Made by a program: the position numbers and the translations under genes. From sequence record OR515477.1: DNA of 64,000 nucleotides. One strand, given 5' to 3'. Below the pieces are notes generated by a model. The model saw only the letters and a list, made by a program, of their open reading frames with translations. It searched no databases and was not told the origin of the DNA. Positions 27,428-39,072 of the stretch are shown here, one piece after another (position 1 is the first letter of the stretch; each line of letters opens with the position of its first letter). Source of the stretch: Escherichia phage Es2.

Positions 27428-27499
27428 CGGGGTGTAGTCTAAGGGAGAGGCAGGAGTCTTCTAAATTCCTTTATGCAGGTTCGAATCCTGTCACCTCGG
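27428..27499 (+). tRNA. tRNA-Arg (anticodon TCT)
   Basis: Acceptor CGGGGTG/CACCTCG, anticodon loop CTTCTAA, T-arm GCAGG-TTCGAAT-CCTGT, CCA encoded. Confidence 0.7.
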
Positions 27500-27536
27500 C
27501 CAATTTTATTAACTGTAGCTAAAACAAAGGAAATAT

Positions 27537-28484: not shown

Positions 28485-28509
28485 TACCCGCATGTAACAT
28501 CTGAAGTAA

Positions 28510-28545
28510 GCCCTGCGTTTCCTGGAGAGCGCAGGGCTTTTCTAT
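28510..28545 (+). terminator. rho-independent terminator
   Basis: GCCCTGCG...CGCAGGGC hairpin followed by TTTTC. Confidence 0.6.
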
Positions 28546-28580
28546 ATAATGTATTTGTAAATCTAACTAGGAGATCAAAT

Positions 28581-29099
28581 ATGAATGTTGATGAGCTAAC
28601 ACAGCACCTCTTATCTAGAGGATTTGATACAGATAAATATCATTGCTGGTTAAGTCCAGCAGGGTGGCTAACAGTCCCGTTGTATGATTTCTCTGGGATG
28701 TTGAGGGGCTATCAAACTTATAATCCTTCTGCTCCAAAAGGTCATGGTAAGTGTCCCTTTGAAGCTAAATATTTTACCTATTCTACTACCCAGTGTGTAT
28801 GGGGATTAGAAACTCTCAATGGAGATGAAAAAGTAGTATTGGTCGCTGAATCTGTATTTAAGGCAGTTGCGTTACATAATGCTGGTTATCCAGCCCTAGC
28901 AATGTTGGGTTCTTCTCCAGGAAAAGCGTTATTAAAGCAACTGAAATTATTACCTTTTAAATTGGTAGCTGTCGGGGATAACGATCCTGCGGGTGAAAAA
29001 TTTGCTAGAAAATTAAACGGCTTTGTTTCTCCTGTAGATGTGGATGAGATGTCTACCGAAAACTTGAAAAATTTTCTTGCTATGAAGCTAAATTTCTAA
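28581..29099 (+). CDS. hypothetical protein
   Basis: 172 aa ORF with AGGAG RBS. Confidence 0.5.
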   Translation: MNVDELTQHLLSRGFDTDKYHCWLSPAGWLTVPLYDFSGMLRGYQTYNPSAPKGHGKCPFEAKYFTYSTTQCVWGLETLNGDEKVVLVAESVFKAVALHNAGYPALAMLGSSPGKALLKQLKLLPFKLVAVGDNDPAGEKFARKLNGFVSPVDVDEMSTENLKNFLAMKLNF

Positions 29100-29120
29100 T
29101 ATAATATATCTTATAAATTC

Positions 29121-29206
29121 GGAAGAATAGCATAATGGTATTGCAGCAGATTGCTAATCTGTCGGTTTGAAATATAGCCTTGTGGGTTCGATTCCCACTT
29201 CTTCCG
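29121..29206 (+). tRNA. tRNA-Ser (anticodon GCT)
   Basis: Acceptor GGAAGAA/TTCTTCC, anticodon loop TTGCTAA, long variable arm, T-arm GTGGG-TTCGATT-CCCAC, CCA encoded. Confidence 0.75.
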
Positions 29207-29215
29207 CCAGATTTT

Positions 29216-29290
29216 GGTTCTCAAGCTCATATGGTATGAGCACCCGGCTCATAACCGGAAGGTACGTAGGTTCGAATCCTCGGGGAGCCA
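29216..29290 (+). tRNA. tRNA-Met/Ile2 (anticodon CAT)
   Basis: Acceptor GGTTCTC/GGGAGCC, anticodon loop CTCATAA, TTCGAAT T-loop (T-stem imperfect), CCA encoded. Confidence 0.6.
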
Positions 29291-29312
29291 CCAACTTATT
29301 TAGGAGCTACAA

Positions 29313-29501
29313 GTGGAACTATACATAGTTTATGTTGTGTTTATTCAAGATAGAGAATATCCGGATGAGTATAAACAAGGGTATAGGTTAGCCAGGGCTA
29401 CCTCTGAAGCACAAGCTATGGATAAAGTAGCTGAGTATATGATTATGGTAGAAAATGTACACTATATCGACTCACTTGAAGCCTCAAAAGTAATTGAATA
29501 A
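29313..29501 (+). CDS. hypothetical protein
   Basis: 62 aa ORF. Confidence 0.4.
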   Translation: MELYIVYVVFIQDREYPDEYKQGYRLARATSEAQAMDKVAEYMIMVENVHYIDSLEASKVIE

Positions 29502-29510
29502 GGAGACTGT

Positions 29511-29696
29511 ATGTCCAAGTTTCAAGAACTCAAGCAAGAGCTAGAAGAATGTGCCTGCCCTGAGTGTAGGGGAATTGGTGAAAGTTCTGATGCAGAAGCA
29601 GGAGATACTTTTTGCAATATCTGGGTTTGCCCAAATTGCAATGGTACAGGTATTAATCCTAACTGTGGTATTTCTCTAGATATTGAAAGGGGATAA
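29511..29696 (+). CDS. small zinc-ribbon protein
   Basis: CACPECRG...CPNCNG paired CxxC motifs, AAGGAG RBS. Confidence 0.5.
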   Translation: MSKFQELKQELEECACPECRGIGESSDAEAGDTFCNIWVCPNCNGTGINPNCGISLDIERG

Positions 29697-29797
29697 TATC
29701 TGTGAAACTAAAAGATTATTATATTGGTTGGTTTGTGGGACTAGTAGTAGGATTTTCACTAGGCTATAATATGTATCAACTAATAAACTGATTACAC

Positions 29798-29871
29798 GGG
29801 GGTGTAATCGAATTGGCATAGGTACTGGACTTAAAATTCAGGTTTTGTGGGTTCGAATCCCACCACCCCTA
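29798..29871 (+). tRNA. tRNA with anticodon TAA (Leu-decoding; class I architecture)
   Basis: Acceptor GGGGGTG/CACCCCT, anticodon loop CTTAAAA, short variable arm, T-arm GTGGG-TTCGAAT-CCCAC, CCA encoded. Confidence 0.55.
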
Positions 29872-30049
29872 CCAAATTAAGGAAATAAGATGTATAGACA
29901 TCCACCTCCGCCAACACGTCGTTCTAGAGAAGTTATCCTCATGGAATTGACTAAAAACTTCAAGGCAACTCTTGAAGATAGAGATTTAGGCACGGATGAA
30001 GACATTGATTTTATTTGTAGACTATTAAAGATGAAATTGGAGAAACAAC

Positions 30050-30256
30050 ATGGCTAATCCTGAAATTACCGCACAACGTTTCATGCTTAAAGGCATGATT
30101 GCTGAAGCAGGTATGACTCAAGAGGTTGCAGACTTTCATAAGCAATTTCTTGATATTATAACTCTAGCTAAGGAGACTGGAGAAAAAGAGCACGCAGCAG
30201 CAATTATGGCTATATCTCTTATTAGTCTAGACTTGGCTGAAGAATCTGGAGTTTAG
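30050..30256 (+). CDS. hypothetical protein
   Basis: 68 aa ORF. Confidence 0.45.
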   Translation: MANPEITAQRFMLKGMIAEAGMTQEVADFHKQFLDIITLAKETGEKEHAAAIMAISLISLDLAEESGV

Positions 30257-30285
30257 CTCCTCCAAACAGAATTTTTAAAAATGTA

Positions 30286-30315
30286 CTTGCCTTTTGCTTT
30301 AAATTTCTGATATAA
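30286..30315 (+). promoter_or_regulatory. early-type sigma70 promoter
   Basis: TTGCCT, 18 bp, TATAAT. Confidence 0.5.
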
Positions 30316-30346
30316 TAGTTATATAAATTAATGAAGGAGTTAACAA

Positions 30347-30622
30347 ATGCAAAATCGTGTTATAGCAACTGGTATTGAAAGTGCAATCTGTAAATCCTGG
30401 GAAGGCTGGGAAGGTGAGATTGAATGGCTTTATTTCTACGATGTAGAACTTCTGCCGGAAGTTAAAGCTAAATGTGTTGAAGCTGGCATGGCTCCAGATG
30501 CAAAAGCTGATATTGATATTTCAATGTCTGAACTTAAAGGCCGTGTAATTACTGTTAGTGATGAGGGCGAAGAAGTTTTCGAACTTCCGTTCTCCTTAAC
30601 TGTCACTCCTAAGTTCGACTAA
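30347..30622 (+). CDS. hypothetical acidic protein
   Basis: 91 aa ORF, AAGGAG RBS after promoter 30286-30315. Confidence 0.5.
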   Translation: MQNRVIATGIESAICKSWEGWEGEIEWLYFYDVELLPEVKAKCVEAGMAPDAKADIDISMSELKGRVITVSDEGEEVFELPFSLTVTPKFD

Positions 30623-30658
30623 CTAATACAGCACTGAGCAAGTTCTTTAAAATTTGAC

Positions 30659-30687
30659 TTGCTCAGTGCCTTAAAACTTGGTATAAT
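30659..30687 (+). promoter_or_regulatory. early-type sigma70 promoter overlapping a 12 bp-stem hairpin
   Basis: TTGCTC, 17 bp, TGGTATAAT; -35 lies inside the inverted repeat GCACTGAGCAAG...CTTGCTCAGTGC (30631-30669). Confidence 0.55.
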
Positions 30688-30705
30688 AGTTATCTAATTT
30701 GGAAA

Positions 30706-30812
30706 CATATTTGAATGAGAAGTAACTAAGCGAGTTGCTTTGAGGGGTAAAGTCAGGATAGCCTGAAATATTCCACCTTGAGTTTAACCGACTTACTTTT
30801 CATTCAAATATG
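30706..30812 (+). ncRNA. long hairpin element (20 bp stem enclosing 67 nt) at start of tRNA-Tyr transcript
   Basis: CATATTTGAATGAGAAGTAA (30706-30725) pairs with TTACTTTTCATTCAAATATG (30793-30812); lies between promoter -10 (30682-30687) and tRNA-Tyr. Confidence 0.4.
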
Positions 30813-30890
30813 GGGGGGTTGGCTCAGAGGCGACGGCGCCTGGCTGTAGACCGGGTATACCACGCGGAGGTTCGAGTCCTCCATCCCCCA
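30813..30890 (+). tRNA. tRNA-Tyr (anticodon GTA)
   Basis: Acceptor GGGGGGT/ATCCCCC, anticodon loop CTGTAGA, extended variable region, T-arm GGAGG-TTCGAGT-CCTCC, CCA encoded. Confidence 0.6.
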
Positions 30891-30911
30891 CCAAATTACT
30901 AAGGAAATAAT

Positions 30912-31457
30912 ATGCACAATAAGTTAATAAATGAACTTCAAAAAAGACAAATAATAACAAAAACTAAGGAGTTTGATATAACTCCGGATTTAATAGTTGA
31001 ATGTTCGAAAGTTTACTTAGAGTTAAGTAACACAAAGGCTAAGAAAGTCTCTTTAGGAGATCTTAGATATAATGTTAAACTATTGTGCCTATCCTTAATT
31101 AAATTTAAGCAAGAAAATAAACTTCTCATAAAAGAAGGTTTCATATATTTTATAGCAAATAAGGCGTGGCCCAATTATTTTAAGATTGGTATGTCAGCTA
31201 ACCCAAAGAAACGTCTGGCTAACTATCAAACATATAGTCCTTTTAGGGATTATACAATGCTACACTGGTCTTTCTGGTTTGACAGAAAGGAAGGTGAAAA
31301 ATTTGTACATAGTCTCTACCAAGACAGAGATCATGAATGGGTTAGGCTGCCACAAAGAAAACTAAATAAAATATTTGAGCAAATAAATAAACTTTCTGGC
31401 CTAGAACACTTGGTACAGAAAGTTAATAGAGAAATAGTTAATGCACCTATCGTCTAA
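30912..31457 (+). CDS. GIY-YIG-like (T5orf172-type) domain protein
   Basis: FIYFIANKAWPNYFKIGMSANPKKRLANYQTYSP resembles the GIY-YIG/T5orf172 fold; 3' end overlaps tRNA-Glu. Confidence 0.5.
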   Translation: MHNKLINELQKRQIITKTKEFDITPDLIVECSKVYLELSNTKAKKVSLGDLRYNVKLLCLSLIKFKQENKLLIKEGFIYFIANKAWPNYFKIGMSANPKKRLANYQTYSPFRDYTMLHWSFWFDRKEGEKFVHSLYQDRDHEWVRLPQRKLNKIFEQINKLSGLEHLVQKVNREIVNAPIV

Positions 31458-31514
31458 TGGTTAGGACATCAGGATTTCAATCTGAGAATCGGAGTTCAAT
31501 TCTCCGTGGGTGTA
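31443..31514 (+). tRNA. tRNA-Glu (anticodon TTC)
   Basis: Acceptor GCACCTA/TGGGTGT, anticodon loop ATTTCAA, T-arm CGGAG-TTCAATT-CTCCG, CCA encoded. Confidence 0.7.
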
Positions 31515-31523
31515 CCAAATTCT

Positions 31524-31599
31524 GCATTCCTAGAGTGTTACTGGACAGCATGTCGGTCTCCAAAACCGTACGGTCTAGGTTCGAGTCCTAGTAGGTTTG
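31524..31599 (+). tRNA. tRNA-like, possible tRNA-Trp (anticodon CCA)
   Basis: Good T-arm CTAGG-TTCGAGT-CCTAG and anticodon loop CTCCAAA, but acceptor stem pairing is poor; ends approximate. Confidence 0.35.
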
Positions 31600-31608
31600 C
31601 CAAAATTT

Positions 31609-31680
31609 GCACCTTTAGCTGAGATGGATTAGCGCTTGCCTGAAGAGCTTGAGAGGTTCGTTCGATTCGAACAGGGTGCA
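31609..31680 (+). tRNA. tRNA, possible tRNA-Phe (anticodon GAA)
   Basis: Acceptor GCACCTT/AGGGTGC, T-arm GTTCG-TTCGATT-CGAAC, CCA encoded; anticodon stem weak (loop CTGAAGA). Confidence 0.5.
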
Positions 31681-31685
31681 CCAAT

Positions 31686-31973
31686 TTGAGGGAGCTGCTG
31701 ATGCATCCTGAAAACTTCTTTATTTACTGCGCTGATAAGTCGCTGAAACGTAGAATTAACAAAGTCTATCATTATAGTGCTAGTCAACAGCCTTATGTAT
31801 ACGCTTTTGACGGTGATCACATTCCACTAGAACAATTATCTTGTGATTACATGATATTGAAGAACTTTGATGAGACGAAGATCTCGAGCGTTCATAATCG
31901 ACAGAATCCATTGACGTGGAAATATAAGAAGAAAAAGAAAGGCATCAAATTCTTAAAAAATGTAGTTGCTTAG
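31686..31973 (+). CDS. hypothetical protein
   Basis: 95 aa ORF; a promoter overlaps its 3' end. Confidence 0.45.
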   Translation: MRELLMHPENFFIYCADKSLKRRINKVYHYSASQQPYVYAFDGDHIPLEQLSCDYMILKNFDETKISSVHNRQNPLTWKYKKKKKGIKFLKNVVA

Positions 31974-31994
31974 TTTCCAAAAGTTCTGTATAAT
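31966..31994 (+). promoter_or_regulatory. early-type sigma70 promoter
   Basis: TTGCTT, 17 bp, TGTATAAT. Confidence 0.6.
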
Positions 31995-32005
31995 AATTAC
32001 ATAAA

Positions 32006-32248
32006 TTGAACTGGAGAAGCAACATGACAGAACAAGAATTGAATGAACGTAAGCTGGTAATGCTTCGCTTACTAAATATTTTCTCTGGTATGGACGGTGG
32101 AATTGACTTTGTTCATCTACGTTCTTTCGTAGAAGAAGCTGAAGGCGAATCTATCACTAAAATCCTTAAACACATGGGATTACTTTTAGATGCTGCTAAT
32201 GTGGCTACTGAATATAAAATAGAAGATCTACCGGAGCGTGTTAAATGA
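32006..32248 (+). CDS. hypothetical protein
   Basis: 80 aa ORF after promoter 31966-31994. Confidence 0.5.
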   Translation: MNWRSNMTEQELNERKLVMLRLLNIFSGMDGGIDFVHLRSFVEEAEGESITKILKHMGLLLDAANVATEYKIEDLPERVK

Positions 32249-32436
32249 AACGATTAGTTAGATTTAAGTGTTGTGGTTCCGAGCACATTTTCACACATCT
32301 TCGTGAATTTAAAATGTGTGATTGTGGTAAATCAGGCTATGACTCAGGAGATGGGTTCTACACCCGTACTCTAGGGAACTTCAATGATCTAGAATTTGAA
32401 GATCTCGAAAAACAAGATAAACCGACCGTTGGCTGA
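32245..32436 (+). CDS. small Cys-rich protein
   Basis: 63 aa, CCGSEH...CDCG motif; 3' end overlaps tRNA-Cys. Confidence 0.45.
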   Translation: MKRLVRFKCCGSEHIFTHLREFKMCDCGKSGYDSGDGFYTRTLGNFNDLEFEDLEKQDKPTVG

Positions 32437-32495
32437 ATGGCTTAGGCGAAGGATTGCAAATCCTTTTTATGTGAGTTCAAATCTCATGCGGTCGT
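32423..32495 (+). tRNA. tRNA-Cys (anticodon GCA)
   Basis: Acceptor CGACCGT/GCGGTCG, anticodon stem-loop AAGGA-TTGCAAA-TCCTT, T-arm GTGAG-TTCAAAT-CTCAT, CCA encoded. Confidence 0.7.
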
Positions 32496-32501
32496 CCAAT
32501 T

Positions 32502-32640
32502 TGCTGAAAGAATTGTTAAATCAATTCAGGCACGCGTAGGAACACTGTCTCCGTAATTGAAAGATGAGGCACGGTTTGGAGAGGTATGCCGCTACACGCT
32601 ACGGTGCTAACTCCGTCTAGGTGAAAATCCTAGTCAGCAA
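32502..32640 (+). ncRNA. long tRNA-like element (~139 nt)
   Basis: 7 bp acceptor-like pairing TTGCTGA/TCAGCAA, D-arm-like hairpin GAATTG-TTAAAT-CAATTC, T-arm-like CTAGG-TGAAAAT-CCTAG; no ORF. Confidence 0.35.
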
Positions 32641-32650
32641 TATAAATTTA

Positions 32651-32730
32651 GGGTCGTTAGCCAAGCGGTTTGGCGGTGGACTGTTAATCCATGTCGAAAG
32701 ACAACGTAGGTTCGAATCCTACACGGCCCG
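32651..32730 (+). tRNA. tRNA-Asn (anticodon GTT)
   Basis: Acceptor GGGTCGT/ACGGCCC, anticodon loop CTGTTAA, extended variable region, T-arm GTAGG-TTCGAAT-CCTAC, CCA encoded. Confidence 0.65.
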
Positions 32731-32835
32731 CCAAATTCTGTGTAGAGTTAAGTAAACCGGTAGCCAACCAGCTATCATTGCTGATATCGAATTCAGCCAC
32801 AGATACCATTTTCATTAATAACTGAGGAAACAAGC

Positions 32836-33021
32836 ATGTCCAAGAATGTAATTGCACAGCTAGAAGTTCATCGTGATAACACAGCTAATAACATTAAGTG
32901 CCGACAAAAAGATATTGAAGCTCGAAAGGCTGATCTTTTAATGAGTATTCGAGAGCTTAATGTACGGAAAGAGTTTCTTAAAGAACTTAATGCAGCTATT
33001 GAAAAACTCAAAGTTGAGTAA
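32836..33021 (+). CDS. hypothetical protein
   Basis: 61 aa ORF, coiled-coil-like. Confidence 0.4.
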   Translation: MSKNVIAQLEVHRDNTANNIKCRQKDIEARKADLLMSIRELNVRKEFLKELNAAIEKLKVE

Positions 33022-33030
33022 ATAAATTAT

Positions 33031-33104
33031 GCGACCGGGGCTGGCTTGGTAATGGTACTCCCCTGTCACGGGAGGGAATGTGGGTTCAAATCCCATCGGT
33101 CGCG
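33031..33104 (+). tRNA. tRNA-Asp (anticodon GTC)
   Basis: Acceptor GCGACCG/CGGTCGC, anticodon stem-loop CTCCC-CTGTCAC-GGGAG, T-arm GTGGG-TTCAAAT-CCCAT, CCA encoded. Confidence 0.75.
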
Positions 33105-33132
33105 CCAAATTAATTTAGTATGAGAATATACT

Positions 33133-33480
33133 ATGCGTAATGCTAAAGAAGAGTTGTTACTTGCCTTAAAAAATACTAATTCTGAAGTTAAATGTATTAA
33201 AATAGAATTCGGGTATTATGGGGATAAAAAAGTTTGGGTATTACCTTTAGGTTATACAGAAAAAGATATTGAGGATTTTCTTAATAATCTAGACTTTAAG
33301 TACGATTCTGGGTATGGTGGGCAATTACTTTATGGTAATGTATGGTTTGCCGACGGAACTTGGCTAGAACGTGGGGAATACGATGGTGCTGAGTGGTGGG
33401 AGTACAAAGCTACCCCGGAAATTCCAGAGGAATGCCGAACAATTAATGGTGAAGTAGATAATACTTTACTATTAAACTAA
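33133..33480 (+). CDS. hypothetical protein
   Basis: 115 aa ORF. Confidence 0.5.
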   Translation: MRNAKEELLLALKNTNSEVKCIKIEFGYYGDKKVWVLPLGYTEKDIEDFLNNLDFKYDSGYGGQLLYGNVWFADGTWLERGEYDGAEWWEYKATPEIPEECRTINGEVDNTLLLN

Positions 33481-33602
33481 AAGAATTTCAGTGCAGAACA
33501 CGGAGCTAGCAATTCGGAAGTGCTGACTCATGATAAGCTGCCTATGTACTTGCTAAGCGGTCGTGTCCAAGACTCGGACTCTTGCACTGAAAACAATCAA
33601 AC

Positions 33603-33723
33603 ATTCTAGCGTGGTTGATGGGGAAACCAGCTTGGCTAGGGCAGAAGCTCGTTCGATTCGAGTGAAAGAATGGTTCTCGTAAGTCCGCACAAGTGATAGC
33701 AGGTTCGAGTCCTGTCTAGAATG
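33603..33723 (+). ncRNA. long tRNA-like element (~121 nt)
   Basis: Perfect 7 bp acceptor pairing ATTCTAG/CTAGAAT, T-arm GCAGG-TTCGAGT-CCTGT, internal second T-arm-like GCTCG-TTCGATT-CGAGT; too long for a canonical tRNA. Confidence 0.4.
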
Positions 33724-33731
33724 ACACTATA

Positions 33732-33859
33732 AAGTTTACTTATTATGTAGGTTCCGATAGATCGGCGGGTCTATTCTGGCATTTAAGAGAAGTCTCGCAA
33801 ACTTCTTTGTCAGCCGTGGGGTTGGTAGCCTCCAGGTGGCCTACACAATAAGTAAATTT
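33732..33859 (+). ncRNA. long hairpin element (20 bp stem enclosing ~88 nt)
   Basis: AAGTTTACTTATTATGTAGG (33732-33751) pairs with CCTACACAATAAGTAAATTT (33840-33859); sub-hairpins inside; no ORF. Confidence 0.4.
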
Positions 33860-33872
33860 ATTAAAAATTCAT

Positions 33873-33901
33873 TTGCTATTTTTCTTAATTATCTGTATAA
33901 T
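33873..33901 (+). promoter_or_regulatory. early-type sigma70 promoter
   Basis: AAAAATTCATTTGCTA, 17 bp, TGTATAAT. Confidence 0.6.
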
Positions 33902-33933
33902 ATATTTTATAAAGTGAAGAGAAGGAAAGCAAA

Positions 33934-34092
33934 ATGAAACACAAGATAGCCCAAGTTTTTATGGCATTATGGTGTATGCCAATAGCTATAACAGCATTTA
34001 ATCTAGATACTTTTACTATAGAAGAAAAATGTATCGGATTAGTTAGCGGCTTTAGTATGCTTGGCTTATCTTTGTTGTGGTTGAAGAAATAA
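33934..34092 (+). CDS. small hydrophobic protein
   Basis: 52 aa ORF MKHKIAQVFMALWCMPIAITAF... after promoter 33873-33901; below track cutoff. Confidence 0.4.
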   Translation: MKHKIAQVFMALWCMPIAITAFNLDTFTIEEKCIGLVSGFSMLGLSLLWLKK

Positions 34093-34096
34093 TATT

Positions 34097-34171
34097 CTCC
34101 GTGTAGCTCAGTTTGGCCAGAGCGTTTCGTTTGGGGCGATAGGGTCGGGGGTTCAAATCCTCCCACGGAGA
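34097..34171 (+). tRNA. tRNA-Pro (anticodon TGG)
   Basis: Acceptor CTCCGTG/CACGGAG, D-arm GCTC..GAGC, anticodon loop TTTGGGG, T-arm GGGGG-TTCAAAT-CCTCC, CCA encoded. Confidence 0.7.
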
Positions 34172-34180
34172 CCAAACAAT

Positions 34181-34255
34181 TGCGGGTTAGATCTCTGGTA
34201 GAGATCGCTAGTCTCATAAGCTAGAAAGAGGTAGGTTCGATTCCTGCACCCGCTT
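34181..34255 (+). tRNA. tRNA-Met/Ile2 (anticodon CAT)
   Basis: Acceptor TGCGGGT/ACCCGCT (1-72 mismatch), anticodon stem-loop CTAGT-CTCATAA-GCTAG, T-arm GTAGG-TTCGATT-CCTGC, CCA encoded. Confidence 0.65.
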
Positions 34256-34278
34256 CCATTTTAATAGAGGATTTCGAA

Positions 34279-34446
34279 ATGAAAGTATTTCGATTAGTAG
34301 TAAGTGACAAACGGTTAGGTAAGAATACATCAAAATCCCTACTCGCTCATTACGGTAAAAATTGGGATGAAGTAATGGCAGAGTTTAGTACTAATCACCC
34401 TTACTTGAAAGTTCACTCTATTAAAGAAGTATATAATGGTTACTAA
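34279..34446 (+). CDS. hypothetical small protein
   Basis: 55 aa ORF with GAGGA RBS between tRNAs; below track cutoff. Confidence 0.4.
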   Translation: MKVFRLVVSDKRLGKNTSKSLLAHYGKNWDEVMAEFSTNHPYLKVHSIKEVYNGY

Positions 34447-34447
34447 T

Positions 34448-34523
34448 AGATCGCTAGCTCAATAGGTTTAGTAGCATCCGACTTTTAATCGGAAGGTTCT
34501 GGGTTCGAGTCCCAGGCGATCTA
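34448..34523 (+). tRNA. tRNA-Lys (anticodon TTT)
   Basis: Acceptor AGATCGC/GCGATCT, anticodon stem-loop TCCGA-CTTTTAA-TCGGA, T-arm CTGGG-TTCGAGT-CCCAG, CCA encoded. Confidence 0.75.
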
Positions 34524-34530
34524 CCAAATT

Positions 34531-34601
34531 GCTCGGTTAGTTTAATGGGAGAACCCCGTCTTTACACGGCGGTTGAGATAGTTCAATTCTATCACCGAGT
34601 A
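34531..34601 (+). tRNA. tRNA-Val (anticodon TAC)
   Basis: Acceptor GCTCGGT/ACCGAGT, anticodon loop TTTACAC, T-arm GATAG-TTCAATT-CTATC, CCA encoded. Confidence 0.7.
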
Positions 34602-34623
34602 CCAATTAACTCAAAATAAGGAA

Positions 34624-34983
34624 TTGCAAATGCAATTATCAAGCAAGATTCAAGGTTATTTCGGTCATGTAACAATGGAGTTCGCTATCTCTAAAGGTTG
34701 GGACTTCGAACAAGATTTAGCTGAGTTCTACAAAGATATTGATCTGAACGTACCGTACATGGGACTTTCTACTGGTCAGGAGATCACAGAAGCCGATGTA
34801 TTCAAGGCAAGTCAAGGTGAGGTAACACCTAGTTTTGCCGAGTTCTGGTTAGGCATTACGTTAAAAGAAGATGCACCAGATAGTGGTGTACTAATGTCTA
34901 GTATGCACTCTGGAAGTTCCGATTACCTTTTCATTAGCGATGTTAAGGAAATACAAGAAGTCTGCAAAAATGTACTTGCTTGA
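34624..34983 (+). CDS. hypothetical protein
   Basis: 119 aa ORF with AAGGA RBS. Confidence 0.5.
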   Translation: MQMQLSSKIQGYFGHVTMEFAISKGWDFEQDLAEFYKDIDLNVPYMGLSTGQEITEADVFKASQGEVTPSFAEFWLGITLKEDAPDSGVLMSSMHSGSSDYLFISDVKEIQEVCKNVLA

Positions 34984-35004
34984 TGCTTAATTTCTTGTTA
35001 TAAT
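34976..35004 (+). promoter_or_regulatory. early-type sigma70 promoter
   Basis: TTGCTT, 17 bp, TATAAT; followed by hairpin GATGAGGA-GAAA-TCCTCATC. Confidence 0.55.
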
Positions 35005-35242
35005 ATTTATATAAATTGATGAGGAGAAATCCTCATCATAGTTCACTAAGGTATTAGCTCGACCTAGGACTGGCTGCCAAAAAGCACGATCCCTACGATT
35101 CGGGAAAAGTTCTAGATTGGTCCACTAGATTCAGCGGCAACTGAATAGTGTATTGGGTTTGCGAGATGACGTAGTTCCTTCCGCTCTAAGCGAAGGTGCT
35201 GTAGTTACGCCGAGCTAATAGCCTTAGTAAACTAAAGAATTT

Positions 35243-35318
35243 GGGGAATGGGTCTGCATGGAGTGGACACCTCGCTTGCACCGAGGACATCAGAACGGTT
35301 CGATTCCGTTATTCTCCA
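35243..35318 (+). tRNA. tRNA-Ala (anticodon TGC)
   Basis: Acceptor GGGGAAT/ATTCTCC, anticodon stem-loop CCTCG-CTTGCAC-CGAGG, T-arm AACGG-TTCGATT-CCGTT, CCA encoded. Confidence 0.7.
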
Positions 35319-35326
35319 CCAAATAC

Positions 35327-35400
35327 GCGTGATTGATGGAATGGGCATACATACCGTCCTTAGAAGTCGGGTTTTGAGGGTTCGAATCCCTTGTCACGCA
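35327..35400 (+). tRNA. tRNA with anticodon TAG (Leu-decoding; class I architecture)
   Basis: Acceptor GCGTGAT/GTCACGC, anticodon loop CTTAGAA, short variable arm, T-arm GAGGG-TTCGAAT-CCCTT, CCA encoded. Confidence 0.55.
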
Positions 35401-35515
35401 CCAAATTTGATGGTCAGAGTAAATTAAACCTACTATCTCGGTTGAGCTGTTTTAATGGGTTCGAATCCCAGCGGGGCGTAACTGCCTGGTGTGATAGAGG
35501 CATCATCTTATTATT

Positions 35516-35603
35516 GGAAGAGCAAATCGAATTGGCGACGAAAACCGCTTGGAAAGTGGCTGACTGGTAAAACGGCTTGAGAGTTCAAATCTCTCCTCTT
35601 CCG
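35516..35603 (+). tRNA. tRNA-Ser (anticodon GGA)
   Basis: Acceptor GGAAGAG/CTCTTCC, anticodon loop TTGGAAA, 18 nt variable arm, T-arm GAGAG-TTCAAAT-CTCTC, CCA encoded. Confidence 0.7.
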
Positions 35604-35618
35604 CCAAACAATTTATAT

Positions 35619-35710
35619 GGTAGGTCAATCCAATGGCTGGCGCTGGACTCCGACTTGAAATCGGTTGATCGTAGTGATACGGTGTAAGGGTTCGATCCCC
35701 TTACCTACCT
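35619..35710 (+). tRNA. tRNA-Ser (anticodon TGA)
   Basis: Acceptor GGTAGGT/ACCTACC, anticodon loop CTTGAAA, 20 nt variable arm, T-arm AAGGG-TTCGATC-CCCTT, CCA encoded. Confidence 0.7.
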
Positions 35711-35716
35711 CCAAAT

Positions 35717-35850
35717 CTTGAAGTATGCCGGAATCGGTAGACGGGGCTGCCTAAAAGGTTTATAGGGAACATCCACTCCCTGCAACATACCTCATAAAGC
35801 GGCTGAGATAAATGGTCTATCTCGTGAAGGTTCAAGTCCTTCTGCTTCTT
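35717..35850 (+). ncRNA. long tRNA-like element (~134 nt)
   Basis: Acceptor-like pairing TGAAGTA/TGCTTCT (6 of 7), T-arm GAAGG-TTCAAGT-CCTTC, internal D-arm-like hairpins; no CCA, no ORF. Confidence 0.35.
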
Positions 35851-35964
35851 GATACATCTATGGCTCAAAGTGTAACGGTGCTATTTGATGCTCTTGGTAA
35901 GACTTCCCCGACATGCGTTCGGGAGTAAGCTGCTAAGACTAGAGTAGAAGAGTTTCTGAGAGCC

Positions 35965-36084
35965 GCCACAATTGAAAATTCGTACTCGTCTTGAGCTGCG
36001 CGCAATAGGAGATAACTTGATTAGTATTCTAGAACATGCTAATTGAGGAAGGTTTCGCTAACCCTGCGAGTTTTCAATTGTGGC
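35965..36084 (+). ncRNA. long hairpin element (18 bp stem enclosing ~85 nt) abutting tRNA-His
   Basis: GCCACAATTGAAAATTCG (35965-35982) pairs with CGAGTTTTCAATTGTGGC (36067-36084); the 3' arm overlaps the tRNA-His acceptor. Confidence 0.4.
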
Positions 36085-36153
36085 TATATCATAATTGGTT
36101 AATGATCCTGATTGTGAATCAGGCCTATGTGGATTCGAATTCCACTAGCCACC
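36080..36153 (+). tRNA. tRNA-His (anticodon GTG)
   Basis: Acceptor GTGGCTA/TAGCCAC, D-arm TCAT..ATGA, anticodon stem-loop CCTGA-TTGTGAA-TCAGG, T-arm GTGGA-TTCGAAT-TCCAC, CCA encoded. Confidence 0.7.
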
Positions 36154-36180
36154 CCAAATTAACTTAAATAGGAAATAAAT

Positions 36181-36387
36181 ATGGCTGATTTCTGCAAACA
36201 ATGCTCCATTGATATGTGGGGTAAAGATACTGGTGATCTTTCTGGTTTGATTACAGAAGCTGAAGTTAAAGAAGGCTACGGTGCTGCTGTGATCTGCGAA
36301 GGATGCGGAGTTATTCGAGTAGATCATGAAGGCAAACGTTTAGAAGATCCAAAAAGTATTAAGAAGAAGGTTAGCCAAGTAGGTTAA
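36181..36387 (+). CDS. small zinc-ribbon protein
   Basis: CKQCS...CEGCG motifs, 68 aa; 3' end overlaps tRNA-Gln. Confidence 0.5.
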   Translation: MADFCKQCSIDMWGKDTGDLSGLITEAEVKEGYGAAVICEGCGVIRVDHEGKRLEDPKSIKKKVSQVG

Positions 36388-36437
36388 GGCTGGGGTCTCT
36401 GAAATCCTGATCAGTGGTTCGAATCCACTACCTTCTG
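36365..36437 (+). tRNA. tRNA-Gln (anticodon CTG)
   Basis: Acceptor AGAAGGT/ACCTTCT, anticodon loop CTCTGAA, T-arm AGTGG-TTCGAAT-CCACT, CCA encoded. Confidence 0.6.
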
Positions 36438-36446
36438 CCAAACAAT

Positions 36447-36521
36447 TGGGGATTAGCTTAGCTTGGCCTAAAGCTTCGGCCTTTGAAGTCGAGATCATTG
36501 GTTCAAATCCAATATCCCCTG
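36447..36521 (+). tRNA. tRNA-Gln (anticodon TTG)
   Basis: Acceptor TGGGGAT/ATCCCCT, D-arm GCTT..AAGC, anticodon stem-loop TCGGC-CTTTGAA-GTCGA, T-arm ATTGG-TTCAAAT-CCAAT, CCA encoded. Confidence 0.65.
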
Positions 36522-36534
36522 CCAGCTAAATTAA

Positions 36535-36607
36535 TGCGTGATTAGTTCAGTGGCTAGAATAACTGGCTTCCAACCAGTAGACACGAGTTCGACTCTCGTA
36601 TCCCGCA
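36535..36607 (+). tRNA. tRNA-Gly (anticodon TCC)
   Basis: Acceptor GCGTGAT/ATCCCGC, anticodon stem-loop ACTGG-CTTCCAA-CCAGT, T-arm ACGAG-TTCGACT-CTCGT, CCA encoded. Confidence 0.7.
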
Positions 36608-36624
36608 CCAAATAAGGAAACGTT

Positions 36625-36846
36625 ATGCACGTTTTTGAGTTTCGTAATAAAAATACTGATAAGCGAGTTATCATTATTGGAGAAACATACCGAGCATATG
36701 AACAAACTGACGGCTCTGTTATCTTGAATGATGAGAAAGGAGGTTTTAGCTTTTATCCAGAAGAACCTTATGAAGAGTTTCGTACTAAGTTTCTTTTACC
36801 AGACTGGCTAGCAGTAGCCGAGCAACGAGAATCCGAAGATGGCTGA
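36625..36846 (+). CDS. hypothetical protein
   Basis: 73 aa ORF, AAGGAAAC RBS. Confidence 0.5.
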   Translation: MHVFEFRNKNTDKRVIIIGETYRAYEQTDGSVILNDEKGGFSFYPEEPYEEFRTKFLLPDWLAVAEQRESEDG

Positions 36847-37001
36847 TAACCTAAAATTAAGGGTCGACAAACAAAAGAAATACATTGAGGTTGAATTAGG
36901 CGAAGAACGATTAAAGCTAACTTTCGAGTTTCTTCAGCAGTTGGCTATGACAGTTATGACTGATAAGTCTCCTGTTATTGAAAAAGAAATCCCGTTGAAA
37001 T
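36840..37001 (+). CDS. hypothetical small protein
   Basis: About 53 aa ORF (MADNLKLRVDKQKKYIEV...) overlapping the previous stop; coordinates +/-2. Confidence 0.35.
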
Positions 37002-37012
37002 AACGGGATCAT

Positions 37013-37085
37013 CGCTCCTAAAGCATTGCTGGCGATGCAGTTGCCTTGTAAGCATCTGAACCGGGTTCGATTCCTGGTGGGAGCA
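37013..37085 (+). tRNA. tRNA-Thr (anticodon TGT)
   Basis: Acceptor GCTCCTA/TGGGAGC, D-arm GCAT..ATGC, anticodon loop CTTGTAA, T-arm CCGGG-TTCGATT-CCTGG, CCA encoded. Confidence 0.65.
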
Positions 37086-37103
37086 CCAAATTTAAAAATT
37101 CAT

Positions 37104-37132
37104 TTGCTTTCTCTCTTATTTATTGTTATAAT
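37104..37132 (+). promoter_or_regulatory. early-type sigma70 promoter
   Basis: AAAAATTCATTTGCTT, 17 bp, TATAAT. Confidence 0.6.
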
Positions 37133-37162
37133 ATTCATATAAATTAATGAGAGGGAAGCCAA

Positions 37163-37456
37163 ATGAAACGTTATCTTTCTGTTGTGTTCCAAACTGGTGG
37201 TCAACGCTATACTTACGAATTTCCTGGCTCTTGGAAGATCAAAGAAGGTGATCAAGTAGTAGTGTTAACACCGCGTGAGGGTTTTAAGGTAGTAACGGTT
37301 AAGCAAGTATTTCCAAAAGAGCGTGAACCAGCTAAAGGCATTCGCTATAAGATGATTCATGGTGTAGTTCGTCAAGTACCACGAGCGGAAGTCGAAATCA
37401 AAGTAGATAAAGATGGTAAACTTAAATATACCTCTTGCTTAGACGAGTTGCTATAA
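37163..37456 (+). CDS. hypothetical protein
   Basis: 97 aa ORF after promoter 37104-37132. Confidence 0.5.
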   Translation: MKRYLSVVFQTGGQRYTYEFPGSWKIKEGDQVVVLTPREGFKVVTVKQVFPKEREPAKGIRYKMIHGVVRQVPRAEVEIKVDKDGKLKYTSCLDELL

Positions 37457-37662
37457 TGAGGATTACTTTTACAGAAAAGATCATGAGTAATGGTGTTATG
37501 ATCATTACCGCATGGGATGGTAATCAGTGGTGTAGTGTTTCAGGTATTAAGCCTGAAGAACAAACACTAGATAATATCTCAAAGATTAAGCGAAGAATGA
37601 CAGAACGTGCACGACTTCCAGGTGCACCTAGAAATGGCAAACGTTCTGCTGCAAAATGTTAA
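37456..37662 (+). CDS. hypothetical protein
   Basis: 68 aa ORF starting at overlapping TAATG. Confidence 0.45.
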   Translation: MRITFTEKIMSNGVMIITAWDGNQWCSVSGIKPEEQTLDNISKIKRRMTERARLPGAPRNGKRSAAKC

Positions 37663-37663
37663 T

Positions 37664-37737
37664 GCTTCGGTAGCTTAGCGATCTAAAGCACTCGGCTGAT
37701 AACCGAGAGATCGGGGGTTTAAATCCCTCCCGGAGTA
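37664..37737 (+). tRNA. tRNA-Ile (anticodon GAT)
   Basis: Acceptor GCTTCGG/CCGGAGT, D-arm GCTT..AAGC, anticodon stem-loop CTCGG-CTGATAA-CCGAG, unusual T-loop TTTAAAT, CCA encoded. Confidence 0.7.
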
Positions 37738-37836
37738 CCAAATTTAGGAATTAAGACTATGCGTCCAGGAAAGTTTAAAAAAGCTAATTGGTCTAAAGAG
37801 TATAAAGAATACTTACTTAGTCTAGTAAAACATAAT

Positions 37837-37909
37837 AGTTAGTTGGCAGAGTGGTTATGCACCTCCTTCATACGGAGCGACTACAGTGGTTCAAATCCAC
37901 TACTAACTA
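37837..37909 (+). tRNA. tRNA-Met/Ile2 (anticodon CAT)
   Basis: Acceptor AGTTAGT/ACTAACT, anticodon loop TTCATAC, T-arm AGTGG-TTCAAAT-CCACT, CCA encoded. Confidence 0.65.
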
Positions 37910-37949
37910 CCATTAAAAGAGCTAGAGATAGCTAACTTTAGGAGCAGCT

Positions 37950-38144
37950 ATGTTAACAATTAAAATAATGTCAGCCAAGAATGGGGAACAGATTCATACA
38001 GGCAAAAGTGTAAGCTTTAATCCTAGAAATAAAAGACTGGCTATAGTTGGAGTAGACCAAGCCATCTTTTTAAAAGAAGATGAAGTAGCATATGTCATGA
38101 ACCAAACTGGTAAGACAGTTTCCGTATACTATGGAAAAGTATAA
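37950..38144 (+). CDS. hypothetical protein
   Basis: 64 aa ORF, AGGAG RBS. Confidence 0.45.
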   Translation: MLTIKIMSAKNGEQIHTGKSVSFNPRNKRLAIVGVDQAIFLKEDEVAYVMNQTGKTVSVYYGKV

Positions 38145-38186
38145 AGAATAAATAGCTGAGCCAAATTCTAACATCGGGGAGATCTA

Positions 38187-38555
38187 ATGAAAGCATATCA
38201 AAACCTTAAATCTGGCGTAATTAATATTGTTCATAATAATCAGATCATTCAGCTATATTCCGATAATGGTGAACTTAAACAGAAAGTTCTAGTTGAAGAT
38301 CTAGAAGGTATCACACCTCACTTTGACCCTGAGGCCTTTCGCATTGTAGATGTGGAAGTGGTTCCTCAAATCGAAGGTGGTCAGCACCTAAATGTCAATG
38401 TATTAAGCCGTGATCAGCTTTTGGATGCGCAGAAACATCCTGAAAAATACCCTCAATTAACTATCCGTGTTTCAGGGTACGCTGTTCGATTTAATGCACT
38501 GACTCGTGAACAACAGAACGACGTTATTAGTCGTACATTTACTCAGGCGATGTAA
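38187..38555 (+). CDS. grcA: autonomous glycyl-radical cofactor-like protein (GrcA/YfiD-like)
   Basis: C-terminal [11 protein letters not shown]...[37 protein letters not shown] closely matches the GrcA/PFL glycyl-radical domain as recalled from memory (RVSGY motif). Confidence 0.7.
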
Positions 38556-38636
38556 TGGGGTTTGGGTACGATTTCTCCCAGCTACGCAAGGTAGTCGAGC
38601 AAACTCCGTTTATCTCCCAAGTTTTAGGAGAAATGT

Positions 38637-38951
38637 GTGGATCGAGCATTAAGACGTCATCACAGGCAACGTGTAAAGAACAACCGCAAGAAGTACTGGA
38701 CAGTCTTTCCACATGAAGAAAGCCCTAAGCGGTTAGGTATTATCACTACTACTCCTTGCATCTGTTCTTGTTGGATGTGTGGGAACCCTCGCAAGTACTA
38801 TAAGAATAGTAAAGCAGGCATGAAAACCTCGGAGATCAGGAAAATGGAAGCGATGATTATGGGCATCTCAAATGATGAATTTGATGGCTTTGTAGGATTC
38901 GGAGAAGGAATCAGCTCAGGCTGTTTAGAAGATGAACGCCCCGACCTGTAA
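38637..38951 (+). CDS. hypothetical Cys-rich basic protein
   Basis: 104 aa ORF, CICSCWMC motif; start codon uncertain. Confidence 0.4.
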   Translation: MDRALRRHHRQRVKNNRKKYWTVFPHEESPKRLGIITTTPCICSCWMCGNPRKYYKNSKAGMKTSEIRKMEAMIMGISNDEFDGFVGFGEGISSGCLEDERPDL

Positions 38952-38962
38952 TTAATAACAAA

Positions 38963-38997
38963 CCCCAGCTATTGAATAAGTAGTCTGGGGTTTTTCT
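38963..38997 (+). terminator. rho-independent terminator
   Basis: CCCCAG...CTGGGG hairpin followed by TTTTTCT. Confidence 0.6.
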
Positions 38998-39072
38998 GTA
39001 TAAAGGTACATAATATATGTATAATAAAATTCATCCACATTAGGTTAATTTAAAAGACTTAATGGAGGTAAT

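What the first reader, a model, noticed from the sequence alone, without database searches (positions are those of the whole stretch)
30706..36084. Three long-range 18-20 bp inverted repeats enclosing 67-88 nt, each abutting a tRNA or promoter
The stems are 30706-30725 with 30793-30812, 33732-33751 with 33840-33859, and 35965-35982 with 36067-36084. They share architecture but not sequence. Two sit immediately upstream of a tRNA (Tyr, His) and the third ends 13 nt before a promoter -35. The arrangement fits RNase III or RNase E processing hairpins, or small structured RNAs released from the polycistronic tRNA transcripts.
Basis: seen in the sequence. Interest (0 to 1): 0.5.

Follow-up and report, generated by a model that had tools for sequence, protein, structure and literature searches.

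The report
Known T5 stable-RNA stems beside tRNAs
The three long hairpin stems are real RNA structures in the tRNA gene cluster of a T5-like phage: two are the long-annotated 'stable RNAs' III and IV of phage T5, whose function is unknown, and the third is an unannotated leader in front of tRNA-Tyr, so the finding is mostly a rediscovery.

Summary
All three inverted repeats exist at the stated coordinates, fold far better than shuffles, and none of that quality appears in 60 shuffles of the window.

The window is a T5-like phage (Demerecviridae) tRNA region. Element 3 is T5 gene rnaIII (window 35973-36078). Element 2 is rnaIV (33745-33847). GenBank annotates both as 'stable RNA with unknown functions' in T5, BF23 and phage 5. 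Element 1 is the unannotated leader between promoter P14a and tRNA-Tyr. None matches an Rfam family.

Comparative work adds three points:
- **The ~20-bp closing stem is the conserved core.** At the tRNA-His and tRNA-Tyr loci, relatives carry alleles with different interiors or plain hairpins, yet keep 19-20 bp through compensatory changes.
- **RNA IV is a folded RNA in its own right.** It has a homologue in Pectobacterium phage My1 with strong covariation.

The annotated mature 5' ends lie inside the helices, with 1-2 nt 3' overhangs. That fits RNase III excision of spacer RNAs, which remains unproven. All three elements are absent from viable T5 deletion mutants. Novelty is low and interest modest.

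The parts
30641..30715 (+). Promoter P14a, with extended -10 TGGTATAAT at 30679-30687. The inferred transcription start is about 30693-30696, roughly 11 nt before the element 1 stem.
   Evidence: The T5 promoter P14a feature maps here at 97% identity. The start site is inferred.
30706..30725 (+). Element 1, 5' arm of the 20-bp closing stem
   Evidence: The arm is almost invariant across 11 variants: 18 of 20 stem pairs never vary, and most variants have C rather than T at 30711, giving a C.A mismatch.
30726..30792 (+). Element 1 interior (67 nt), a bent hairpin. It is absent from the 'short allele' relatives.
30793..30812 (+). Element 1, 3' arm, ending one base before tRNA-Tyr
30813..30893 (+). 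tRNA-Tyr (GTA). This is a different allele from T5's tRNA-Tyr.
   Evidence: The T5 tRNA-Tyr gene gives no blastn match in the window.
33732..33751 (+). Element 2, 5' arm of the closing stem. The full stem is about 23 bp with a 1x1 mismatch at 33745/33846.
33745..33847 (+). RNA IV (T5 rnaIV homologue, 103 nt): half-stem plus three hairpins, with invariant loops GGCG and CUCGCAA
   Evidence: 99% identical to T5 rnaIV. Covariation. My1 homologue.
33840..33859 (+). Element 2, 3' arm. It is A/T-rich and ends 13 nt before the -35 of P13a.
33873..33901 (+). Promoter P13a core (TTGCTA, 17-nt spacer, TATAAT)
   Evidence: The T5 P13a feature maps to 33854-33928.
35862..35968 (+). RNA I (T5 rnaI homologue). 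Its 3' end GCCA overlaps the first 4 nt of the element 3 stem.
35965..35984 (+). Element 3, 5' arm of the 20-bp closing stem
35973..36078 (+). RNA III (T5 rnaIII homologue, 106 nt): 12-bp half-stem plus three hairpins
   Evidence: 98% identical to T5 rnaIII and 100% to phage 5
36065..36084 (+). Element 3, 3' arm. It includes tRNA-His nucleotides +1 to +5.
36080..36156 (+). tRNA-His (GTG). Position -1 (36079) is U.
35045..35228 (+). A fourth element of the same build, not in the finding. RNA 2H (35052-35223) is closed by the stem 35045-35061/35211-35228. It lies downstream of promoter P13b and ends 19 nt before tRNA-Ala.
   Evidence: (I7)

Best explanation
These are RNA-level closing stems of non-tRNA 'spacer' RNAs in the early tRNA operons of a T5-like phage. 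Element 3 is the RNA III gene, element 2 is the RNA IV gene, and element 1 is the unannotated leader RNA of the P14a-tRNA-Tyr transcript. Shown: the identity with the annotated T5 genes, and the fact that selection preserves the helix of about 20 bp (two helical turns) itself. Inferred mechanism: in the polycistronic precursor the flanks of each spacer pair into a ~20-bp duplex, and host RNase III cuts that duplex on both strands. This excises the spacer and frees the neighbouring RNA (RNA I upstream, tRNA-His or tRNA-Tyr downstream) for final trimming by RNase P and 3' exonucleases. The excised interior keeps a 10-12 bp half-stem that seals both ends, so it accumulates as a 'stable RNA'. On this reading the abundance of RNA III and of the Tyr leader is largely a by-product of processing. 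RNA IV has a conserved, covarying interior and probably has an additional function of its own, which is unknown. My sub-confidences are: identity about 0.95; the stem is a selected RNA structure about 0.9; RNase III is the enzyme about 0.45.
For: Identity: T5, BF23 and phage 5 GenBank records annotate rnaIII immediately 5' of tRNA-His and rnaIV immediately 5' of promoter P13a. These map to window 35973-36078 and 33745-33847 at 98-99% identity.

The stem is the selected feature:
- At the RNA III locus, relatives have four other alleles, of 158, 158, 88 and 53 nt, the last a plain hairpin. All are closed by 19-20 bp.
- In a stem-only alignment of those alleles, 9 of 20 pairs show double compensatory changes, 97% of cells are paired, and 0 of 500 shuffles reach this.
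- Element 1 has a short allele that is a plain hairpin of about 20 bp abutting tRNA-Tyr.
- The RNA IV stem and hairpins covary (7 pairs). With the My1 homologue included, 25 of 50 pairs show compensatory changes, 12 of them in the closing stem.
- A 16-22 bp stem overlapping tRNA-His +1 to +5 is present in 5 of 5 Demerecviridae genera with different sequences, and absent in 3 of 3 other phage groups. Random-position controls reach at most 17 pairs, and their 99th percentile is 13-15 pairs.

The RNA strand: the + strand folds 9-14 kcal/mol better than the - strand.

RNase III:
- The annotated 5' ends lie 8 bp (RNA III), 13 bp (RNA IV) and 7 bp (RNA 2H) inside continuous helices.
- The matching 3' ends give 2-nt, 1-nt and 2-bp-staggered 3' overhangs.
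- E. coli has no 5'-to-3' exonuclease (background knowledge), so ends inside a duplex need a duplex-cutting endonuclease.
- Staggered double cuts with 2-nt 3' overhangs are the RNase III signature (PMC6212723).
- RNase III takes part in phage T4 tRNA maturation (PMC4810235).
Against: No end-mapping or rnc-mutant data could be found, so the enzyme is inferred. I could not check whether the GenBank end coordinates were measured or drawn by the annotators. The two base pairs between the proposed RNA III cuts are both A-U, whereas in vivo E. coli sites usually have at least one G-C there. RNA IV gives a 1-nt overhang rather than 2-nt. The RNA III 3' end coincides with the tRNA-His boundary, so RNase P alone could produce it. 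The outer 9 bp of the element 3 stem never vary, so their pairing cannot be told apart from constraint by RNA I and tRNA-His within T5-like phages; only the cross-genus comparison supports it. Element 1 shows no covariation among its 11 close variants.
Confidence: 0.55

Rival explanations
1. The stems are protective or insulating clamps and are not RNase III sites. They keep A/U-rich spacer RNA double-stranded so that RNase E and 3' exonucleases cannot attack it, and they stop spacers from mispairing with neighbouring tRNAs. The ends would be made by RNase P, at the tRNA 5' ends and perhaps at the half-stems acting as minihelix mimics, followed by exonucleolytic trimming.
For: The RNA III 3' end is the tRNA-His boundary and the element 1 stem ends at tRNA-Tyr -1, so RNase P cuts are expected there anyway. 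RNA I next door has a tRNA-like terminal stem plus GCCA, which shows that RNase P-type substrates exist in this cluster. RNA III and the TrudiGerster allele share a T-loop-like UUCGCUA loop. The RNA III site lacks the usual G-C pair between the cuts.
Against: It does not explain 5' ends 7-13 bp inside intact helices. It does not explain why the stem length stays at 19-24 bp in every allele, plain hairpins included. tRNAs that follow ORFs in the same operons have no such stems, so RNase P does not need them.
Confidence: 0.25
2. The elements are trans-acting non-coding RNAs, for example tRNA or anticodon-arm mimics that bind or decoy a host or phage factor. The stem would be only a structural clamp that gives them a long life.
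For: The RNA IV interior is conserved across two subfamilies, with invariant loops GGCG and CUCGCAA and covarying stems. CUCGCAA is a 7-nt anticodon-loop-like loop of the form Y-U-NNN-R-N (read from the sequence). The annotation says the RNAs accumulate as stable species. Phage tRNA clusters are now known to counter tRNA-targeting defences (PMC11464382).
Against: At the RNA III and tRNA-Tyr loci the interior is replaced or deleted in many natural relatives while the stem is kept. All three elements are missing from viable T5 deletion mutants. There is no Rfam tRNA or other family match. No target is known.
Confidence: 0.15
3. They are DNA-level elements (cruciforms, recombination or homing-endonuclease boundaries) or transcription terminators.
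For: Allele swaps end exactly at the stem/tRNA junctions. HNH homing endonuclease genes populate this region in relatives.
Against: Conserved G.U pairs make the + strand fold 9-14 kcal/mol better than the - strand. Compensatory changes keep RNA pairing. None of the three closing stems is called terminator-like: they are A/U-rich and enclose 67-88 nt, far beyond a terminator loop. The only site called inside an element is a small internal hairpin at 36054-36070.
Confidence: 0.04

Closest known systems
Phage T5 stable RNAs III and IV (genes rnaIII/T5s01 and rnaIV/T5s05 in NC_005859; also annotated in BF23 AJ604530 and phage 5 AJ604531)
   Same: Elements 3 and 2 are these genes. They show 98-100% and 99% identity, the same neighbours (RNA I, RNA III, tRNA-His; RNA IV, promoter P13a) and the same strand.
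   Different: The annotated mature RNAs are shorter than the inverted repeats. The outer 8 bp (RNA III) and 13 bp (RNA IV) of each stem lie outside the annotated RNA. Element 1 has no annotated counterpart in any record seen.
Phage T4 species I and II RNAs (rnaC, rnaD) in the T4 tRNA cluster
   Same: They are small stable RNAs of unknown function, co-transcribed with phage tRNAs and cut out of the same precursor (PMC2330249; T4 annotation). RNase III participates in T4 tRNA maturation (PMC4810235).
   Different: Folding T4 rnaC and rnaD shows no ~20-bp closing stem. rnaC carries a tRNA-like T arm. Sequence similarity was not formally searched.
RNase III processing stems of rRNA operons and phage T7 early RNA
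   Same: Flanking sequences pair into a helix of about two turns that encloses a structured RNA, and staggered cuts release it. The annotated ends here show 2-nt (RNA III, RNA 2H) or 1-nt (RNA IV) 3' overhangs.
   Different: Cleavage here is not demonstrated. The helices are very A/U-rich. The RNA III site has no G-C pair between the cuts. The released product is about 100 nt and has no known function.
T5 leader RNAs annotated as stable RNAs (RNA 2H after P13b, RNA X after P16-17)
   Same: Element 1 has the same layout as RNA 2H: promoter, short 5' tail, long closing stem around a structured insert, then a tRNA.
   Different: Element 1 is not annotated as an RNA in T5, BF23 or any other record seen. 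Its stem abuts the tRNA directly, whereas RNA 2H ends 19 nt before tRNA-Ala.

Membership tests
T5 rnaIII (stable RNA III) | Sequence homology to the annotated T5/BF23/phage 5 rnaIII gene | tested here: met
   98.1% over all 106 nt against T5. The 123-nt query spanning the element is 100% identical to phage 5 AJ604531.
T5 rnaIII (stable RNA III) | Position between rnaI and tRNA-His, on the same strand | tested here: met
   RNA I at 35862-35968, RNA III at 35973-36078, tRNA-His from 36079/36080
T5 rnaIII (stable RNA III) | Accumulates as a discrete stable RNA in infected cells | not testable with these tools
   Rests on the GenBank note 'stable RNA with unknown functions'. The primary papers are not in the library.
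T5 rnaIV (stable RNA IV) | Sequence homology to the annotated rnaIV gene | tested here: met
   99.0% over all 103 nt
T5 rnaIV (stable RNA IV) | Position immediately upstream of promoter P13a | tested here: met
   The upstream neighbour differs between phages (RNA2, tRNA-Gly or an ORF) but the link to P13a is constant.
E. coli RNase III substrate | Double-stranded stem of about two helical turns (about 20 bp) | tested here: met
   The closing stems are 20, about 23 and 20 bp in the window. They are 19-23 bp in every allele and genus with an enclosed insert. The plain hairpins in front of tRNA-His and tRNA-Tyr in two other genera are 16-17 bp.
E. coli RNase III substrate | Staggered double cleavage leaving 2-nt 3' overhangs | tested here: inconclusive
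   The annotated ends give 2 nt for RNA III, a 2-bp stagger for RNA 2H and 1 nt for RNA IV. The experimental basis of those coordinates could not be verified.
E. coli RNase III substrate | The two pairs between the cuts are base-paired and usually include a G-C pair (PMC6212723) | tested here: inconclusive
   RNA 2H has two G-C pairs. RNA III has A-U and U-A. RNA IV has a single U-A pair next to an A.C mismatch.
E. coli RNase III substrate | Cleavage depends on rnc in vivo or on purified enzyme in vitro | not testable with these tools
   No data found.
tRNA or tRNA-like RNA (Rfam RF00005 clan) | Match to the tRNA covariance model | tested here: not met
   An E<=1 scan of 26000-40000 lists the tRNAs but nothing overlapping the interiors of the three elements.
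Intrinsic terminator | G+C-rich hairpin followed by a U tract | tested here: not met
   The scan calls none of the three closing stems, and their bases are A/U-rich.
Any curated Rfam family | Covariance-model match at E<=1 | tested here: not met

The most novel reading that the evidence does not exclude
The two-turn helix that includes the first nucleotides of tRNA-His could be a family-wide device for setting that tRNA's 5' end. All five Demerecviridae tRNA-His genes examined have U, not G, at -1, so the -1 base cannot pair with base 73. From background knowledge, RNase P should then remove it, leaving a tRNA-His without the extra 5' nucleotide that E. coli HisRS needs. The annotated RNA III/tRNA-His junction (36078|36079) is exactly the 3'-strand partner of a 2-nt-staggered RNase III cut whose 5'-strand cut is the RNA III 5' end (35972|35973). 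RNase III rather than RNase P could therefore create a tRNA-His that carries U-1. More broadly, the ~20-bp stems may be fixed 'sockets' in which structured RNA inserts are gained, swapped or lost.
Probability: 0.12. Interest if true: 0.7.

Novelty: already known. Interest (0 to 1): 0.3.

Why it matters
Two of the three elements are genes that the T5 field has listed for decades as stable RNAs of unknown function, so the finding itself adds little.

The comparative results give that old question something concrete to test:
- The ~20-bp closing helix, not the insert, is conserved at the tRNA-His and tRNA-Tyr loci.
- RNA IV behaves as a folded RNA family shared with Pectobacterium phage My1, and it has no Rfam entry.
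- A stem overlapping the tRNA-His 5' end is present in every Demerecviridae genus sampled.

If RNase III processing is confirmed, these RNAs become a clean model for how phages organise mixed tRNA/mRNA operons. [quoted passage not shown]

Tried and rejected
- **Rfam.** An E<=1 scan gave no family for any element, so tRNA-likeness is rejected on that basis.
- **Terminators.** The scan calls none of the closing stems.
- **Coding.** Only tiny ORFs, or ORFs that cross a tRNA, overlap the elements.
- **Shared origin of the three interiors, RNA I, RNA 2H and the allelic inserts.** No pairwise similarity exceeds shuffles at z>4.
- **DNA cruciform reading.** The strand asymmetry of the folds argues against it.
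- **More lineages.** An IMG/VR protein-anchored search, two IMG/VR motif scans and one metagenome motif scan returned only T5-like phages and My1. RNA IV gave no hit in Klebsiella Sugarlandvirus, Pantoea AAS21 or about 35 more distant viral contigs.
- **Literature.** Seven searches found nothing on T5 RNA I, III or IV. The 1980s primary papers are not in the library, so the experimental basis of the annotated ends is unverified.
- **T4 species I and II as structural relatives.** Their folds show no comparable closing stem.
- **Inverted repeat at 25669-25782.** It lies inside a 155-aa ORF and was not pursued.
- **A possible link to queuosine-type tRNAs.** The stems sit in front of Tyr, His and Asp tRNAs, but the sample is too small and My1 has one in front of tRNA-Lys.

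Full report
**Observation.** The first is 20 nt at 95% complementarity with 67 nt enclosed. The second is 20 nt at 90% with 88 nt enclosed. The third is 18 nt at 94% with 84 nt enclosed. Folded as RNA on the + strand, each becomes a closing stem of 20-23 bp around two or three internal hairpins. Each has z = -5.6 to -5.8, and none of 200 dinucleotide shuffles folds as well. Inverted repeats with at least 17 of 18 Watson-Crick matches and a 40-200 nt spacer number 2 in the real window and 0 in 60 dinucleotide shuffles of all 64 kb. The stated neighbours are correct: tRNA-Tyr starts at 30813, tRNA-His at 36080, and the -35 of a consensus-like promoter at 33873. The - strand folds 9-14 kcal/mol worse, so the structures belong to the RNA strand that also carries the tRNAs.

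**What the region is.** The window is the tRNA gene region of a T5-like phage (Demerecviridae). The 5.6-kb stretch matches 581 phage records, the best being Shigella phage SSP1 (94% identity, 88% coverage), and T5 itself matches at 92%.
- The curated T5 record and the BF23 and phage 5 tRNA-region records annotate a series of 'stable RNA with unknown functions' genes among the tRNAs.
- Direct mapping shows that element 3 is rnaIII (window 35973-36078, 98% to T5, 100% to phage 5). It lies between rnaI (35862-35968) and tRNA-His.
- Element 2 is rnaIV (33745-33847, 99%), directly upstream of promoter P13a.
- Element 1 fills the gap between promoter P14a (30641-30715) and tRNA-Tyr. No record seen annotates it as an RNA.
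- Rfam has no family for any of them.
- A fourth element of the same build, RNA 2H (35052-35223; stem 35045-35061/35211-35228), sits between promoter P13b and tRNA-Ala.

**Conservation within T5-like phages.** The long form of element 1 occurs in 160 phage records, RNA IV in 406 and RNA III in 282, mostly at 90-100% identity.
- RNA IV has a divergent group at about 77% identity. In an alignment of 28 distinct variants, 7 pairs carry double compensatory changes, 98% of cells are paired, and 0 of 500 shuffles reach the observed score.
- The outer 13 bp of the RNA IV stem are essentially invariant even in that group. Its 3' arm lies where an A/T-rich upstream promoter element of P13a would be, which may explain the invariance (inference).
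- Element 1 shows no covariation among its 11 close variants.

**The stem is the conserved core.** A covariance model of RNA III finds, at the same place between RNA I and tRNA-His, four other alleles in relatives that lack RNA III by BLAST.
- They are 158 nt (TrudiGerster, L017), 88 nt (L023, L069) and a 53-nt plain hairpin (L013).
- All fold with a 19-20 bp closing stem.
- In a stem-only alignment, 9 of 20 pairs show double compensatory changes, 97% of cells pair, and 0 of 500 shuffles match.
- Element 1 likewise has a short allele in phage 5, NBSal002 and others. This is a plain hairpin of 8 + 11 bp with one mismatch, still abutting tRNA-Tyr.
- The interiors of all these elements share no detectable sequence similarity.

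**Conservation beyond T5-like phages.**
- The RNA IV model finds a full-length homologue in Pectobacterium phage My1, which belongs to another subfamily (44.7 bits, E about 1e-8).
- That homologue has the same loops GGCG and CUCGCAA and a 22-bp closing stem with a central 1x1 mismatch. The stem sequence is completely different, and its 3' arm overlaps the start of tRNA-Lys.
- With My1 included, 25 of 50 pairs show compensatory changes. The alignment was fitted to the model, so this count leans towards the structure.
- I scanned for the best stem whose 3' arm ends within -4 to +5 of each tRNA start. tRNA-His has such a stem of 19-22 bp, enclosing 80-123 nt, in the window, My1, a Klebsiella Sugarlandvirus and Pantoea phage AAS21. 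Proteus phage 2 (Novosibvirus) has a 16-bp plain hairpin there.
- Random positions give a 99th percentile of 13-15 pairs and a maximum of 17.
- Three tRNA-His genes from other phage groups show only background stems of 7-12 pairs.
- tRNA-Tyr has stems of 20, 17 and 13 bp in three of the four genera scanned.

**Mechanism.**
- The annotated mature 5' ends lie inside the helices: 8 bp in for RNA III, 13 bp for RNA IV and 7 bp for RNA 2H.
- The matching 3' ends leave 2-nt, 1-nt and 2-bp-staggered 3' overhangs.
- E. coli lacks a 5'-to-3' exonuclease (established knowledge), so such 5' ends need an endonuclease that cuts duplex RNA.
- Staggered double cuts with 2-nt 3' overhangs in an intramolecular stem are the RNase III pattern (PMC6212723).
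- RNase III takes part in phage T4 tRNA maturation (PMC4810235). The T4 cluster also yields species I and II RNAs from the same precursor (PMC2330249).
- The constant two-turn length, kept even where the insert is gone, fits an RNase III substrate better than a mere clamp.
- I therefore favour RNase III excision of spacer RNAs, with the sealed half-stem explaining why they persist.
- Several points are unverified or contrary. I found no cleavage data and could not check the basis of the GenBank ends. The RNA III site has only A-U pairs between the cuts. RNA IV gives a 1-nt overhang. RNase P could make the RNA III 3' end.
- RNA IV, with invariant loops and a covarying interior across subfamilies, probably does something more. 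What that is remains unknown.

**Dispensability.** The viable T5Mos deletion (30661-38625 in T5 coordinates) removes RNA IV, RNA 2H and the Tyr leader. The viable T5-123 deletion (29191-32442) removes RNA III (PMC11464382; T5 coordinates). None of the three elements is therefore essential on laboratory E. coli.

**Comparison and verdict.** Elements 2 and 3 are members of the T5 rnaIV and rnaIII genes by sequence and position. Element 1 is an unannotated RNA of the same kind as the T5 leader RNA 2H. T4 species I and II RNAs are the nearest analogues in context, but their folds show no such closing stem. The finding is a rediscovery of known phage genes plus one unannotated sibling, so novelty is low. 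The new elements are comparative: the ~20-bp stem as the selected unit, an RNA IV family reaching My1, and a family-wide stem over the tRNA-His 5' end. These make the old 'unknown function' question testable, and they raise one speculative idea about how a tRNA-His whose gene has U at -1 gets its 5' end.

Noticed in passing
window 35862-35968: RNA I (by T5 annotation) folds with a 5-bp terminal stem GGCUC/GAGCC followed by a 3' tail GCCA. That is a tRNA-like acceptor end with an encoded CCA, which suggests RNase P and tRNA 3'-end enzymes mature it.
   Followed up: partly
window 35045-35228: RNA 2H is a fourth long-stem element (about 17 bp with one bulged G, enclosing about 149 nt) between promoter P13b and tRNA-Ala. 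Its annotated ends are staggered across two G-C pairs, the best match to RNase III rules among the four.
   Followed up: partly
window 36079; L095 19043; L096 3452; L097 8098; L107 593: All five Demerecviridae tRNA-His genes examined have U rather than G at position -1, with C73 or U73. The usual bacterial way of keeping G-1 through RNase P should therefore not apply. Two of three outgroup phage tRNA-His genes have G at -1.
   Followed up: partly
window 30813-30893 and 35243-35321: The window's tRNA-Tyr and tRNA-Ala give no blastn match to T5's genes, although the leader and RNA 2H just upstream are 96-97% identical. The allele replacement ends at or near the stem/tRNA junction.
   Followed up: partly
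window 30618-30643 / 30657-30682: An imperfect hairpin (core CAGCACTGAGCAAGT/ACTTGCTCAGTGC, 13-nt loop) straddles the -35 region of promoter P14a. It is conserved in T5, phage 5, NBSal002 and TrudiGerster. It may act as a terminator or regulator for the upstream ORF.
   Followed up: no
window 26854-26925, 29216-29290, 35619-35709: Rfam tRNA-clan matches that ARAGORN did not call. The second corresponds by position to T5 tRNA-Ile2 (CAU). The third, a tRNA-Sec model hit below its gathering score, corresponds to T5 tRNA-Ser1. The first lies in the region corresponding by position to the 'RNA X' leader upstream of tRNA-Arg.
   Followed up: no
L095 (Pectobacterium phage My1) 11576-11704 and 18886-19054: My1 carries an unannotated RNA IV homologue directly 5' of tRNA-Lys. 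It also has an RNA III-like stem-enclosed 118-nt element directly 5' of a tRNA-His that its GenBank record does not annotate.
   Followed up: partly
L097 (Pantoea phage AAS21) about 5006-5139: A 24-bp stem with one mismatch, enclosing 84 nt, ends at -1 of tRNA-Asp. This is another example of the same build in front of a different tRNA.
   Followed up: no
window 33763-33766 and 33792-33798: The RNA IV loops GGCG and CUCGCAA are invariant in all variants, My1 included. They contain complementary GCG/CGC, so a loop-loop contact is possible. A similar UCGC-containing 7-nt loop, UUCGCUA, is shared by RNA III and the TrudiGerster allele.
   Followed up: no
window 25669-25687/25764-25782 and 26632-26652/26800-26820: Two further long-range inverted repeats (19 nt at 89% and 21 nt at 86%). 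The first lies inside a 155-aa ORF. The second lies in the region corresponding by position to the RNA X leader upstream of tRNA-Arg.
   Followed up: partly
window 33485-33591: A shorter closing stem (about 10 bp, TTTCAGTGCA/TGCACTGAAA) encloses about 85 nt between an ORF and the tRNA-like RNA2. Stem-closed spacers seem to be the rule in this region.
   Followed up: no
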